Below are positions 53,107-56,085 of a DNA stretch of 64,000 nucleotides, piece after piece. The position numbers were made by a program, and so were the translations under genes. The DNA is taken from positions 2,393 to 66,392 of the forward strand of contig QCER01000006.1 in assembly GCA_003280515.1 (NCBI GenBank). Direction: 5' to 3'. This DNA is from Prochlorococcus sp. AG-355-P18. GTDB taxonomy: Bacteria; Cyanobacteriota; Cyanobacteriia; PCC-6307; Cyanobiaceae. Each line of letters starts with the position of its first letter. Positions within the stretch are counted from its first letter, which is position 1. The notes below the pieces were generated by a model, which was given only the letters and a program-made list of their open reading frames with translations, did not search any database and was not told the DNA's origin.

Positions 53107-54015
53107 ATGTCCTTTTACTATTTAAGTCAGGAGATGGGGCTAGCCTTAAATGGTATTTTAAGGAGAATATGCTCTCATAATAAAGATTTTTTAATAGAAG
53201 ACATTTCGATAACTTGGATTAATTATAAAAGTGAAAATAAAAGTGTATTTAAAGGTTTTGGAACTGGCATTAATAATAAAAAAATGGTTTACCCTGCCAG
53301 CATAGTCAAGTTAGTTTATGGCCTTGCTGCATTTTATTGGATTAAAAAAGGAAGTTTATTTTTATCAGATGAAATTATTGATGCTGTATGGAAAATGTTG
53401 TCTTTCTCCAGTAATAATGCAACAAGCTTTTTAATTGATTTACTCACTGGAACAACAAGTGGACCTCGTATTGAAGGCGAACTATGGGAAAATTGGAAAT
53501 ATCAAAGAAATATAATAAATGATTGGCTACATGATTTAAATTGGGAAGAATTGGTTGGAATAAATTGCTGTCAGAAGACTTGGGATGATGGCCCATTTGG
53601 TCGTGAGAAAGAATTTTACGGATATGATAATAAAAATAGAAATGCTATGACCTCTGATTCAGCTGCAAGGTTTTTGGAAGAAATTATGATTCATATTGAT
53701 TATCAAGAAAATAATTTAAATTTGCGAAGTTTTTTAAAAAGAAATTTAAATAAAGTTGTTCTTAAAAAGGATTCACTTAATCAAATAGATGGTTTTTTGG
53801 GTGAAGGATTACCAGAAAACATTAATCTTTGGAGTAAAGCAGGCTTAATGTCTGAAGTTAGACATGATTCAGCTTGGTGGATTAATAATCAATCTCTACA
53901 AACTTTATTGGTAGTTTTTTGTAATGGAGAAAAATATTCCAAAGATTCTTCCCTTTTACCGTTTATAGCAAAAGAAGTATACGATTTTAATAAGAAATAT
54001 ATTATTGAGGACTAA
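53107..54015 (+). CDS. Serine hydrolase, class A beta-lactamase/PBP fold
   Basis: YPASIVK (SxxK), SSN (SxN), WSKAG (KTG-like), RHD. Confidence 0.85.
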   Translation: MSFYYLSQEMGLALNGILRRICSHNKDFLIEDISITWINYKSENKSVFKGFGTGINNKKMVYPASIVKLVYGLAAFYWIKKGSLFLSDEIIDAVWKMLSFSSNNATSFLIDLLTGTTSGPRIEGELWENWKYQRNIINDWLHDLNWEELVGINCCQKTWDDGPFGREKEFYGYDNKNRNAMTSDSAARFLEEIMIHIDYQENNLNLRSFLKRNLNKVVLKKDSLNQIDGFLGEGLPENINLWSKAGLMSEVRHDSAWWINNQSLQTLLVVFCNGEKYSKDSSLLPFIAKEVYDFNKKYIIED

Positions 54016-54221
54016 AGTGAATCTTCTAAGAAATTAGAATCTAATTTGTCAGTATATGCTTCATAAGGTAGCATCATTACTTCTTCCAAATCTAAATCAT
54101 TCATAATCCATTCTCTATATTCTGCTAACAAGCTTTTTCTGTCTTCATTATCTAATTCATAAATACGCAATGCGGTATCTTTAAAATTTTCTTTTATTAA
54201 ATTTTCAATTTCTTTCTTCAT
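54012..54221 (-). CDS. Small acidic hypothetical protein (69 aa)
   Basis: ATG start 4 nt after the resolvase-like stop; protein-like composition (19 D/E). Confidence 0.65.
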   Translation of the reverse strand: MKKEIENLIKENFKDTALRIYELDNEDRKSLLAEYREWIMNDLDLEEVMMLPYEAYTDKLDSNFLEDSL

Positions 54222-54225
54222 TATT

Positions 54226-54849
54226 TTATGTTAATTCTCCCTCCAAAATCACTCTCCTAATTGTTGATAATGCAATTCCAGTTTGTGTTCTGATTGATCG
54301 ATATGAATATCCTTCATTGCGCAATCTGATTACTAAAGATTCTTTTAAAGGACTTATTTTGGGCCTGCCTCCCAAATTATTTCCAGATAATTTTCTGCGT
54401 AATAGTTGTTCTTTTTTTCTTTCACCTAAACTTTTGTCTTCTAAATTATCTAATTCATATAAAATCTTAAAAATTGAAGAATTTGCATTAGAAGATTCAT
54501 TAGCAGCAAAAAAACCAGTCAAAGTTCGCAATTGAATATTCTTATTAATAAGTTTATTTATTGTTATCAAACATTCTTTTTTATTTTTGAATGCTCGATC
54601 AAGCTGAGTTATTATTAATTGATCTCCTTTTGATAAGGAATTTATAGCTTTATTGAGTTGGGGTTTGATTTCTTCATCTAAACTTATAAATTCAGAGAAC
54701 ACTAAACTGCAACCCTCTTCCTTCAAAAATTTTATTTGCTCTTCTAAATATTCATATTCGTTATGAGTAGCTCTAGCATAACCTATTGCTTTAGAGTTTT
54801 TATTTTTTTCCGATAATAAAATACGCTTTCTTTTAAATTTAAAAGTCAA
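54226..54849 (-). CDS. Resolvase/invertase-family small serine recombinase homologue (catalytic Ser apparently replaced by Thr) with C-terminal HTH
   Basis: GYARAT, EQ...L..EGC..VFSE, KGDQLIITQLDRA, GGRP and HTH GYSYRSIRTQTGIALSTIRR. Confidence 0.85.
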   Translation of the reverse strand: MTFKFKRKRILLSEKNKNSKAIGYARATHNEYEYLEEQIKFLKEEGCSLVFSEFISLDEEIKPQLNKAINSLSKGDQLIITQLDRAFKNKKECLITINKLINKNIQLRTLTGFFAANESSNANSSIFKILYELDNLEDKSLGERKKEQLLRRKLSGNNLGGRPKISPLKESLVIRLRNEGYSYRSIRTQTGIALSTIRRVILEGELT

Positions 54850-54873
54850 TGTTTTATTACATATATTTTTTAC

Positions 54874-55038
54874 TGTATCAAAAAATAATTAAAAAAACAC
54901 TTTTTAGTACAAAATAAAGCATATATTATTGGTTTTTTAGCTAAATTTTTTAATCATTACGTTCTGATATCTGTATTAAAAATAACGTTATGAAATCTGA
55001 TTCAATTTTAGTTTATGAAACAAAAACGTTGTGTAAAT
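54874..55038. repeat. Array of imperfect repeats resembling resolvase res subsites
   Basis: TGTATCAAAAA...TTTTTAGTACA inverted pair; ACGTTCTGATATCTG (54959), ACGTTATGAAATCTG (54985), AGTTTATGAAAC (55010), ACGTTGTGTAAAT (55026). Confidence 0.5.
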
Positions 55039-55191
55039 AGTAACTTTAATTAAGATTTTCTAAATTGCAGAAGGATTAGTTGGATTCATTTATTTATTTA
55101 CTTCTGTTGAATGAGCTTCGTCTTTGAAATTATAAATAGTTAATTCATCTTGTTTTTAGTAAAATAAAATTACAGGTCAAGAAGATTTAAT

Positions 55192-56085
55192 GTGACTAAT
55201 AATCCTAATAGTTTAATTTCAAAACCTGAATGGTTAAGGGTCAAAGCTCCACAAATTGAGCGAATTGGTAATACTGCAAATTTATTAAATGATTTAAATC
55301 TCAATACCGTGTGTCAAGAAGCAAGCTGTCCAAATATCGGTGAATGTTTTGCTAGTGGAACTGCAACTTTCCTCATAATGGGTCCTGGTTGCACTAGGGC
55401 ATGTCCATATTGCGATATTGATTTTGATAGATCTAAGAGAGACTTAGACCCAACTGAACCATATCGTCTAGCCGAGGCTGTTTTTAGAATGAAGCTTAAG
55501 CATGTTGTAATTACATCAGTTAATAGAGACGATCTTGAGGATGGTGGCGCATCTCAATTTTTTCAATGTGTTCATCAAATAAGAGAAAAATCTCCTGAAA
55601 CTACTATTGAGCTTTTAATTCCTGATTTTTGTGGCAACTGGAAAGCTCTTGAAAAAGTTCTTGATTCAAATCCAAACGTTTTAAACCATAATATTGAGAC
55701 TGTGCCTTCGCTATATAAAAAAGTAAGACCTCAGGGTAAATATGAAAGAACTCTTGAGTTGCTTAAAAGAACCAGAGACTATTCTCCCAAAATTTATACA
55801 AAGTCAGGCTTCATGCTTGGTTTAGGGGAAAAAGATGAGGAGGTCGTAAGTCTGCTTAAGGATTTAAAAAGTAATTTCGTTGATATTGTTACTATCGGCC
55901 AATATTTATCTCCTGGCCCTAATCATTTACCTGTTAAAAGATTTGTAAGTCCTTCAAAATTTAATTACTTTAAAGTGTTCGGGGAAAAAGATTTAAACTT
56001 CATGCAAGTAATTAGTTCTCCTTTAACTCGTAGTAGCTACCATGCTGAAGAGATTCAAAAACTTATGAAAAAGTATCCAAGATAG
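55192..56085 (+). CDS. lipA: Lipoyl synthase
   Basis: [33 protein letters not shown]. Confidence 0.96.

What the first reader, a model, noticed from the sequence alone, without database searches (positions are those of the whole stretch)
54226..54849. Domesticated serine recombinase: nucleophile Ser replaced by Thr, DNA-binding domain intact, embedded in core genome
Seen: the active-site motif reads GYARATH instead of GYARVST (Thr codon ACT at 54768-54766). The SG...R loop reads SLDEEIK and DRLGR reads DRAFK, whereas the GGRP minor-groove arm and HTH (GYSYRSIRTQTGIALSTIRR) look intact. Flanks are housekeeping genes (psaL, lipA, gltB), with no transposase, terminal repeats or composition shift. 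Established: in gamma-delta/Tn3/Hin-type enzymes Ser10, Arg8, Asp67, Arg68 and Arg71 are catalytic, and resolvases also repress promoters in res. Inference: either a catalytically dead resolvase exapted as a transcription or nucleoid factor, or a threonine-nucleophile variant. With the upstream repeat array and downstream acidic ORF it forms a three-part candidate system, the best novelty candidate in the window.
Basis: partly seen in the sequence, partly recalled or inferred. Interest (0 to 1): 0.72.

Follow-up and report, generated by a model that had tools for sequence, protein, structure and literature searches.

The report
Catalytically dead resolvase kept as core gene
High-light Prochlorococcus keeps, as a core gene next to lipA, a resolvase-type recombinase that has lost its catalytic residues but whose DNA-binding domain is almost frozen, so it most likely works as a site-specific DNA-binding protein, not as an enzyme.

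Summary
The 207-aa ORF at 54226-54849 (-) has a small serine-recombinase fold. Thr28 sits where Gin Ser9 (gamma-delta Ser10) sits, and the Arg45 and Arg71 equivalents are Lys.

The Thr-nucleophile idea fails. In 202 distinct orthologues that position is T151, I30, S9, A6, N2, P1, V1. The Arg71 equivalent is K, S, A, C or R.

The gene is not decaying:
- It was found in 65 of 68 good-quality genomes of the genus.
- It lies in the same lipA / gene / orf69 / serine-hydrolase order in 53 of 53 loci.
- dN/dS is about 0.2 in the N-domain and 0.03-0.04 in the arm plus helix-turn-helix.

It belongs to a family found only in picocyanobacteria among those sampled. Intact copies are 85-98% identical across genera and look mobile. 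Long-branched dead copies sit in core neighbourhoods. All share a 60-77% identical DNA-binding domain.

Family members carry clustered TGTTCCANWAAG sites upstream. High-light genomes keep diverged versions in two conserved non-coding blocks.

Best reading: an exapted, probably autoregulating DNA-binding pseudo-recombinase. Its cellular role is unknown. I found no paper on it.

The parts
54226..54849 (-). Coding sequence of the resolvase-like protein: 207 aa with a TTG start. An in-frame upstream GTG at 54900-54898 is closed by TAA at 54891-54889 in this strain.
   Evidence: ORF list and translation. Pfam PF00239 E = 2.6e-16. AlphaFold2 mean pLDDT 85.8. Foldseek best hits are Tn3 resolvase, Sin, gamma-delta resolvase and Gin. 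The N-terminal leader aligns with the Met-started leader of relatives.
54490..54789 (-). N-terminal resolvase-fold domain (residues 21-120) with a degenerate active site: T28 for Ser10, Y32 for Gln14, E53 for Asp36, L57 for Gly40, K62 for Arg45, K88 for Arg71. Tyr6, Arg8, Gln19, Ser39, Asp67 and Arg68 equivalents are kept.
   Evidence: Alignment to Gin 4m6f. State of these positions in orthologues. dN/dS about 0.21.
54766..54768 (-). Codon 28, ACT (Thr), at the position of the serine nucleophile.
   Evidence: In 202 distinct orthologous proteins the position is T151, I30, S9, A6, N2, P1, V1.
54385..54489 (-). Long helix E (residues 121-155). In resolvases this is the dimerisation helix.
   Evidence: AlphaFold2 secondary structure H121-155. 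It is the least constrained part, with dN/dS 0.27-0.32.
54241..54384 (-). Minor-groove arm (NLGGRPK) plus three-helix DNA-binding domain (residues 156-203). This is the nearly invariant part of the family.
   Evidence: dN/dS 0.03-0.04. It is 60-77% identical to members of other genera, while the N-domain is 22-37% identical. pLDDT is 95-98 over residues 171-200. Pfam HTH_7 scores only 18.9 bits, below its cut-off of 23.8.
54850..54912 (-). Proximal conserved non-coding block directly upstream of the start. It contains TGTACTAAAAAG (54911-54900), a 10-of-12 match to the family motif TGTTCCANWAAG. It also contains TTGATACAG (54881-54873), a likely promoter or operator.
   Evidence: Mean column identity is 0.83-0.90 across 21 spread orthologous loci, against 0.50-0.66 in the middle of the spacer. 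It is positionally homologous to the site-bearing region of non-HL members.
54957..55029 (-). Distal conserved non-coding block with AGAAC/GTTCT-type half-sites. In this strain they read TGTTTCATAAAC (55022-55011), TCATAACGTTATTTTTAATACAG (54993-54971) and CAGAACGT (54966-54959). In HLI-type genomes the same place holds an 8-bp inverted repeat (TGTTCTAT and its complement) separated by 8 bp.
Evidence: Alignment of 52 orthologous spacers. Column identity is 0.73-0.87.
54012..54221 (-). orf69: a 69-aa acidic protein (pI 4.25). It starts 4 nt after the stop of the resolvase-like gene and has no known family.
   Evidence: It is present next to the gene in 53 of 53 loci. It has 30 invariant columns and 81% mean column identity across 23 genomes. 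There is no Pfam, PHROG or PADLOC hit.

Best explanation
The gene encodes a pseudo-enzyme. It has a small serine-recombinase (resolvase/invertase) fold that can no longer cut DNA, and it is kept by selection for its site-specific DNA-binding domain.

Shown:
- The fold is that of a small serine recombinase.
- The nucleophile and two of the catalytic arginines are lost or variable.
- Selection is purifying, and six to seven times stronger on the arm plus helix-turn-helix than on the N-domain.
- Position and neighbours are fixed throughout the high-light genus.
- The gene belongs to a family, found only in picocyanobacteria among those sampled, whose intact members look mobile.

Inferred:
- It binds as a dimer, through helix E, to TGTTCYA-type sites in the two conserved blocks just upstream of its own start. 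I read these blocks as a relic of a res site.
- By binding there it represses its own operon, which also carries the 69-aa acidic ORF.
- This is the non-catalytic, repressor or architectural half of what Tn3/gamma-delta and Sin resolvases already do at res.

What the cell gains from it, such as a regulon, an architectural role or control of related mobile elements, is not established.
For: Fold: Pfam Resolvase 2.6e-16. PDB sequence hits to Gin, Sin, Tn3 and gamma-delta. AlphaFold2 pLDDT 85.8 with the canonical strand/helix order, long helix E and a three-helix C-terminal domain. Foldseek probability 1.0 to Tn3 resolvase-site III and Sin-site II complexes.

Loss of catalysis:
- T28 aligns on the nucleophile, K62 on Arg45 and K88 on Arg71.
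- In 202 distinct orthologues the nucleophile position is T151, I30, S9, A6, N2, P1, V1. The Arg71 position is K171, S18, A9, R1, C1. The Arg45 position is K in 200 of 200.
- In Tn3 resolvase S10A is inert and R71 mutants cleave at about 1e-3 of the parental rate. R45K cleaves at 0.02 and gives no resolution in vivo (PMC2794168).

Selection and core status:
- Matches in 65 of 68 good-quality genomes of the genus and 29 of 29 in a second sample.
- The gene order is identical in 53 of 53 loci.
- dN/dS is 0.16-0.20 overall, about 0.21 in the N-domain and 0.03-0.04 in the arm plus HTH.

Family:
- The arm plus HTH is 60-77% identical to members in other genera. The N-domain is only 22-37% identical, no better than to unrelated resolvases.
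- The high-light clade with two metagenomic relatives forms a 100%-supported, long-stemmed, all-dead clade.

Sites:
- TGTTCCA is 21-fold enriched in the 270 nt upstream of 26 non-HL members.
- The consensus is TGTTCCANWAAG, in 3-4 copies, with one inverted copy abutting the ATG.
- In one complete genome, 3 of the 4 exact matches genome-wide lie upstream of the gene.
- The HL spacer has two conserved blocks at the homologous place.

Precedent: Sin bound at site II is a catalytically inactive, architectural complex on head-to-tail repeats (PMC2428073).
Against: No binding was measured.

A weight matrix built from the non-HL sites finds no hit above 5 bits in this strain's own spacer. The sites here are diverged (10 of 12 at best), and the two blocks could simply be promoter elements.

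The sites are not arranged as the close inverted pairs typical of a crossover site.

If the protein bound only its own promoter, that alone would not explain why a streamlined genome keeps it. Helix E, the expected dimer interface, is the least constrained segment.

Pfam HTH_7 is below its gathering score.
Confidence: 0.62

Rival explanations
1. It is still an active recombinase that uses Thr28, or a neighbouring residue, as the nucleophile, and it inverts or excises DNA at this locus.
For: Thr carries a hydroxyl. Tyr6, Arg8, Asp67 and Arg68 equivalents are retained. Nine of 202 orthologues have Ser at the position.
Against: The position is Ile in 12 of 13 orthologues of the about-70%-identity group. 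Within the close group it is also Ala, Asn, Pro or Val.

The Arg45 and Arg71 equivalents are never or almost never Arg. These changes abolish resolution in Tn3 resolvase (PMC2794168).

Gene order and orientation are identical in 53 of 53 loci, so no inversion or excision variants are seen. No second site cluster or flanking repeats were found.
Confidence: 0.03
2. It is a selfish relic. An immobilised resolvase/res module persists with orf69 as an addiction-like (toxin-antitoxin-like) or otherwise self-preserving pair, without benefit to the host.
For: The layout is autoregulation-type: sites upstream, then a DNA-binding gene, then a translationally coupled small gene. Intact relatives sit in islands with tyrosine integrases and next to tRNA genes. 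Small serine recombinases are listed as tycheposon genes (bioRxiv 10.1101/2020.12.28.424599).
Against: orf69 is acidic and has stand-alone weak paralogues without a partner elsewhere in Prochlorococcus genomes. There is no PADLOC hit.

In this genus the position is fixed and copies are single. HTH constraint is strong over a divergence in which the protein falls to 66% identity. This is more than expected for a neutral relic in a genome under strong streamlining.
Confidence: 0.1
3. It is a transcription factor for the divergently transcribed lipoyl synthase gene lipA. This would parallel the way Tn3 resolvase represses both tnpA and tnpR from res.
For: lipA starts 302-367 bp away on the opposite strand in 52 of 52 loci that reach it. 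The shared spacer holds the conserved blocks.
Against: The conserved blocks lie within about 180 bp of the resolvase-like gene. A separate conserved stretch next to lipA looks like lipA's own promoter.

Relatives in other genera carry the same sites but are not next to lipA. The adjacency is therefore specific to this genus and the sites came with the gene.
Confidence: 0.1
4. It is a decaying pseudogene caught before disruption.
For: The catalytic residues are lost. GC is slightly lower than in highly expressed neighbours.
Against: The reading frame is intact in about 150 listed genomes, with a single in-frame stop among them. dN/dS is about 0.2 overall and 0.03-0.04 in the HTH. Contigs from RNA libraries of two studies cover it, though this does not show transcription.
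Confidence: 0.01

Closest known systems
Tn3 / gamma-delta resolvase (TnpR) with its res site
   Same: Same fold and domain order: catalytic-type domain, long helix E, GRP arm, three-helix DNA-binding domain. Both have a cluster of cognate-looking sites directly upstream of the gene, in a spacer shared with a divergent gene. From established knowledge, resolvase bound at res also represses tnpR and tnpA.
   Different: The nucleophile Ser is replaced and variable, and the Arg45 and Arg71 equivalents are not Arg. There is no transposon, no second res and no rearrangement. It is a vertically inherited core gene under purifying selection. It has an extra basic leader of about 20 aa.
Sin resolvase bound to res site II (PDB 2R0Q)
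   Same: It is the second-best structural match. Sin shows that a serine recombinase dimer can sit on head-to-tail repeats in a purely architectural, catalytically inactive mode (PMC2428073). The family's proximal site looks like tandem GTTC-type half-sites 13-14 bp apart.
   Different: Sin remains a full enzyme at site I. Here no catalytic mode is left. The binding geometry is untested.
Gin / Hin DNA invertases
   Same: These are the best sequence matches among solved structures: Gin E = 2e-12 over residues 22-198. The PHROG 'DNA invertase' family scores 1.3e-31.
   Different: There is no invertible segment and no inverted site pair. The catalytic residues are lost. Sources nevertheless annotate orthologues as 'DNA invertase Pin-like' or 'recombinase family protein'.
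Intact members of the same picocyanobacterial family, and small serine recombinases of tycheposon-type islands
   Same: The DNA-binding domain is 60-77% identical. They share the basic N-terminal leader and the upstream TGTTCCANWAAG sites.
   Different: They keep the seven scored active-site positions (Tyr6, Arg8, Ser10, Arg45, Asp67, Arg68, Arg71 equivalents). They are 85-98% identical across eight genera. They occur in 0-3 copies, sometimes broken, next to tRNA genes or a tyrosine integrase. Their coupled downstream small ORFs belong to other families.

Membership tests
Small serine recombinases (resolvase/invertase; Pfam PF00239 + HTH_7) | Resolvase N-terminal domain fold | tested here: met
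   PF00239 scores 60.4 bits against a cut-off of 23.3. AlphaFold2 pLDDT is 85.8. Foldseek gives probability 1.0 to Tn3, Sin, gamma-delta and Gin.
Small serine recombinases (resolvase/invertase; Pfam PF00239 + HTH_7) | Nucleophilic serine (Ser10 of gamma-delta, Ser9 of Gin) | tested here: not met
   The position is Thr28 here. In orthologues it is T, I, S, A, N, P or V.
Small serine recombinases (resolvase/invertase; Pfam PF00239 + HTH_7) | Conserved catalytic arginines (Arg8, Arg45, Arg68, Arg71) | tested here: not met
   Arg8 and Arg68 equivalents are kept. The Arg45 equivalent is Lys in 200 of 200 orthologues. The Arg71 equivalent is K, S, A or C in 199 of 200.
Small serine recombinases (resolvase/invertase; Pfam PF00239 + HTH_7) | C-terminal helix-turn-helix joined by a GRP minor-groove arm | tested here: met
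   The NLGGRPK arm and helices 167-178, 183-190 and 194-206 are present, with pLDDT 95-98 over residues 171-200. Pfam HTH_7 is below its cut-off, at 18.9 against 23.8 bits.
Small serine recombinases (resolvase/invertase; Pfam PF00239 + HTH_7) | Two cognate recombination sites in the replicon, and DNA rearrangement | tested here: not met
   Gene order is the same in 53 of 53 loci. There are no flanking repeats. In a relative's complete genome the exact motif clusters only upstream of the gene. Activity itself was not assayed.
Picocyanobacterial 'SYRSIR' resolvase-like family (defined here) | Arm plus HTH signature: GGRPK, then LV.RLR.EG.SYRSIR.QTG.ALSTIRR | tested here: met
   The signature is present here and in about 35 clusters at 50% identity. 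Among 301 cyanobacterial genomes, strong matches came only from the window's own family: 11 of 26 genomes there, and weak matches of about 42% identity elsewhere.
Picocyanobacterial 'SYRSIR' resolvase-like family (defined here) | Clustered TGTTCCANWAAG sites within about 230 nt upstream of the gene | tested here: inconclusive
   The sites are clear in non-HL members. Here there are only diverged versions in conserved blocks, 10 of 12 at best. There is no weight-matrix hit above 5 bits.

The most novel reading that the evidence does not exclude
The dead resident copies could be held to the same DNA specificity as the intact, horizontally moving copies because they act on those elements.

In this reading, a domesticated resolvase works as an immunity factor or decoy. 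It occupies the res-like sites of incoming tycheposon-type elements, or of their resolvase promoters, and so controls their resolution, expression or establishment.

This would explain why the DNA-binding domain is nearly frozen across all picocyanobacterial lineages while the rest of the protein diverges as far as between unrelated resolvases.
Probability: 0.12. Interest if true: 0.8.

Novelty: new variant of a known kind. Interest (0 to 1): 0.6.

Why it matters
High-light Prochlorococcus has one of the smallest sets of DNA-binding regulators of any free-living phototroph, so an unrecognised core DNA-binding protein matters for its regulatory map.

Databases name the gene 'recombinase family protein' or 'DNA invertase'. 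That wrongly implies site-specific recombination at a core locus.

The family also offers a natural series for studying how a serine recombinase is exapted. It runs from intact mobile copies to dead resident copies, sometimes in the same tRNA-Cys neighbourhood. A review of recruited mobile-element genes lists only catalytically active serine recombinases (PMC8987985). I found no paper on this gene.

Tried and rejected
Contexts were rebuilt from genome stretches instead.
- Complex prediction of the protein with orf69 gave 'no answer'. This is no evidence either way.
- AlphaFold2 of orf69 reached pLDDT 60 only, so no fold search was made. The protein atlas gave only ~70-aa hypothetical proteins.

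Sites and repeats:
- Tandem Repeats Finder found no array in 54700-55300.
- The promoter and terminator scan was no better than shuffles.
- The weight matrix from non-HL sites gave no hit above 5 bits in this strain's spacer. The top genome-wide hits are scattered, so no regulon was detected.
- The exact 12-mer is at background level genome-wide in five relatives, apart from the cluster upstream of the gene in one of them.

orf69 relationships:
- hhalign of orf69 against three other families of coupled small ORFs found no relation.
- A local similarity between orf69 and helix E (the YELDN..KSL peptide, and a 32-nt repeat at 78% identity) is marginal. BLASTP gives E = 0.016 and profiles do not support it.

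Library searches:
- Rfam gave nothing near a gathering score.
- PADLOC gave none.
- The phage collection gave only generic invertases at about 30% identity and no cyanophage.
- The hosts of the two closest outside relatives (P0125 and P0126, 53-54% identical) were not found among 401 genomes.

RNA libraries:
- Contigs from two studies cover the gene and orf69 and bridge their junction.
- These are contigs from libraries that may contain DNA. They show neither transcription, strand nor start.
- The low cover in the spacer is not used as evidence.

Literature searches found no paper on this gene or on catalytically dead resolvases.

Full report
**What is there.** The window comes from a high-light Prochlorococcus; source names of near-identical proteins say so. 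At 54226-54849 on the minus strand lies a 207-aa ORF with a TTG start. It matches Pfam Resolvase (PF00239, E = 2.6e-16). It matches the resolvase HTH more weakly, below the gathering score. Among solved structures the best sequence matches are Gin invertase (E = 2e-12), Sin, Tn3 and gamma-delta resolvase. An AlphaFold2 model built on 60 relatives has mean pLDDT 85.8. It shows the canonical strand/helix core, a long helix E (121-155) and a three-helix C-terminal domain. Foldseek places it with Tn3 resolvase-site III, Sin-site II, gamma-delta and Gin.

**The observation.** The HMMER alignment to Gin puts T28 (ACT, 54768-54766) on the nucleophile Ser9. It also gives these equivalences; the gamma-delta numbering is my transfer from Gin:
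- Y24 on Tyr6, R26 on Arg8 and Q38 on Gln19.
- Y32 on Gln14 and E53 on Asp36.
- S56-L57 on Ser39-Gly40 and K62 on Arg45.
- D84-R85 on Asp67-Arg68 and K88 on Arg71.

The flanks are PsaL, an NlpC/P60 hydrolase, a beta-lactamase-fold ORF, lipoyl synthase, a YCII protein and Fd-GOGAT. There is no clear composition shift. There are no flanking repeats.

The gene was found in 163 of 201 genomes of the genus. Among genomes at least 90% complete it was found in 65 of 68, and in 29 of 29 in another sample. Gene order is identical in all 53 loci fetched: YCII, lipA (opposite strand), the gene, orf69, the beta-lactamase-fold ORF (opposite strand), NlpC. The spacer to lipA is 302-367 bp.

- The nucleophile position is Thr in the close (HLII-like) group, but Ile in 12 of 13 orthologues at 66-74% identity.
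- Over 202 distinct sequences it is T151, I30, S9, A6, N2, P1, V1.
- The Arg71 equivalent is K171, S18, A9, R1, C1.
- The Arg45 equivalent is always Lys.
- The sampling favours sequences close to the query, so the share of Thr is inflated.

A residue that can be Ile, Ala, Pro or Val is not a nucleophile. In Tn3 resolvase, S10A is inert and R71 mutants cleave at about 1e-3 of the parental rate. R45K cleaves at 0.02 and gives no resolution in vivo (PMC2794168). I conclude that the protein is catalytically dead. The few Ser variants are changes on an already dead background; K62 and K88 remain.

**It is not decaying.** Pairwise Nei-Gojobori estimates give dN/dS of 0.16-0.20 for the whole gene. 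The N-domain is about 0.21, helix E 0.27-0.32 and the arm plus HTH 0.03-0.04. The same pattern holds in both the close and the distant groups. Pairs are not independent, so these are descriptive values. Only one of about 150 listed matches has an in-frame stop.

**The wider family.** Outside the genus, 45 of 117 sampled genomes of the same family have matches at 21-46% identity. None of the 26 loci fetched is next to lipA. All share a striking C-terminal signature: GGRPK, then LV.RLR.EG.SYRSIR.QTG.ALSTIRR.

- Against members of other genera the window protein is 22-37% identical in the N-domain. That is no better than against unrelated resolvases (29-35%).
- In the arm plus HTH it is 60-77% identical, against 30-44% for unrelated resolvases.
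- In 301 cyanobacterial genomes the signature was found only in the window's own family.
- No cyanophage carries it.

Members fall into two kinds.

*Intact copies* keep all seven scored active-site positions (Tyr6, Arg8, Ser10, Arg45, Asp67, Arg68, Arg71 equivalents).
- They are 85-98% identical across eight genera.
- They have short branches near the base of the tree.
- They occur in 0-3 copies per genome, with fragments and stops.
- They lie next to tRNA-Cys or tRNA-Asn, or 3 kb from a tyrosine integrase.
- This fits the 'small serine recombinase' listed among tycheposon genes (bioRxiv 10.1101/2020.12.28.424599) and the 'tnpR-like' genes seen in Synechococcus insertions (PMC8995045).

*Dead copies* sit on long, lineage-specific branches.
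- In four low-GC genera they lie in one conserved neighbourhood: tRNA-Cys and an RNase D-like exonuclease, with purM and panC-cmk beyond the gene in the three loci that extend that far.
- In two Synechococcus-type genomes the same upstream neighbourhood (tRNA-Cys, RNase D-like exonuclease) holds an intact copy.
- The high-light clade plus two metagenomic relatives is a 100%-supported, long-stemmed, all-dead clade.

**Cis elements.** In the 270 nt upstream of the 26 non-HL members, TGTTCCA is enriched 21-fold over the rest of those loci. The sites align to TGTTCCANWAAG. Typically they sit about 225, 180 and 143 nt before the Ile22 codon in one orientation. One inverted copy abuts the ATG. In one complete genome, 3 of the 4 exact matches lie there, at background frequency elsewhere.

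In the high-light genus the spacer shows two conserved blocks, 55029-54970 and 54912-54850. Their column identity is 0.73-0.90, against 0.50-0.66 between them.
- They hold TGTTCTA / AGAACG / TGTACTA variants.
- In HLI-type genomes they also hold an 8-bp inverted repeat (TGTTCTAT and its complement) separated by 8 bp.
- The proximal block is positionally homologous to the site-bearing region of the other members.

In this strain the sites are degenerate. A matrix from the non-HL sites finds nothing above 5 bits. There is no tandem array. That the protein binds here is an inference. It rests on the analogy with res lying upstream of tnpR, and with Sin's non-catalytic complex on head-to-tail repeats (PMC2428073).

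**orf69.** The 69-aa acidic ORF (54012-54221, pI 4.25) starts 4 nt after the stop codon.
- It is present in all 53 loci.
- It is better conserved than the recombinase-like protein, with 30 invariant columns.
- It matches no known family.
- It has weak stand-alone paralogues in many Prochlorococcus genomes.
- Intact relatives carry other, unrelated coupled small ORFs.
- Interaction modelling gave no answer.

**Mechanism and odds.** I put the chance that the protein is catalytically inert and maintained as a DNA-binding protein at about 0.85-0.9. I put the chance that it binds its own upstream blocks and autoregulates the two-gene operon at about 0.5. Its benefit to the cell is open. The rivals are:
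- a Thr-nucleophile enzyme (0.03);
- a self-preserving relic with orf69 (0.1);
- a lipA regulator (0.1);
- a pseudogene (0.01).

The most novel reading not excluded is that resident dead copies police the related mobile copies (0.12).

**Comparison and novelty.** Structurally it belongs to the small serine-recombinase superfamily. Functionally it fails the defining tests: nucleophile, arginines and rearrangement. It should therefore not be called a recombinase or invertase, as the databases do. Repression and architectural binding are known side-activities of resolvases. A catalytically dead copy fixed as a core gene, within a family that spans intact mobile to dead resident copies, is a new variant of a known kind. 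I found no paper that describes it.

**Limits.**
- There are no binding, activity or transcript-end data.
- RNA-library contigs cover the genes but do not prove transcription.
- Genomes are anonymous handles, so clade names (HLI, HLII, low-light) are my inference from identity, GC content and one named record.

Noticed in passing
same genome, contig C13:2413-5521 (outside the window): There is a second small serine recombinase (193 aa) with the Ser nucleophile and an RLGR motif present. It is only about 23% identical to the window's protein and has a different HTH. It lies 1.2 kb from a 426-aa protein that is homologous (31% identity) to a Pfam-confirmed phage-type tyrosine integrase in a relative's genome. 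This looks like an island of tycheposon type.
   Followed up: partly
window 54889-54900 (-): An in-frame GTG lies 17 codons upstream of the TTG start. It is open in many orthologues, where gene callers give 224-228 aa. In this strain it is closed by TAA after three codons. The high nucleotide conservation there is therefore probably regulatory, not coding.
   Followed up: partly
L095:1501-1692 (-), L096:1486-1686 (+), and many places: orf69 belongs to a loose family of 60-80-aa Prochlorococcus proteins that share a DR.SLL.EY.EW-type motif. There are up to five weak matches per genome, not next to a recombinase-like gene. The function is unknown.
   Followed up: partly
window 54130-54161 and 54428-54459: A 32-nt direct repeat (78% identity) links orf69 and helix E of the recombinase-like gene. 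Both encode a YELDN..(E)D(K/R)KSL peptide. BLASTP gives E = 0.016, profiles do not support it, and the similarity is weaker in HLI-type genomes. It is probably chance.
   Followed up: yes
L005-L029 (downstream of the recombinase-like genes): Intact family members are followed by small ORFs of 57-78 aa from at least three unrelated families (four counting one seen in a single locus), usually overlapping the stop codon by 4 nt (ATGA). None has a known family.
   Followed up: partly
L080-L082, L085, L088, L090: In six other genera the family member lies in one conserved neighbourhood beside tRNA-Cys and an RNase D-like exonuclease, with purM and the panC-cmk fusion beyond it in three of them. The window genome's homologues of the flanking genes lie at the ends of contigs C6 and C20, so that locus is unassembled here.
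   Followed up: partly
window 54012-54015: orf69 (-) and the 302-aa beta-lactamase-fold ORF 53107-54015 (+) converge and overlap by 4 nt at their 3' ends.
   Followed up: no
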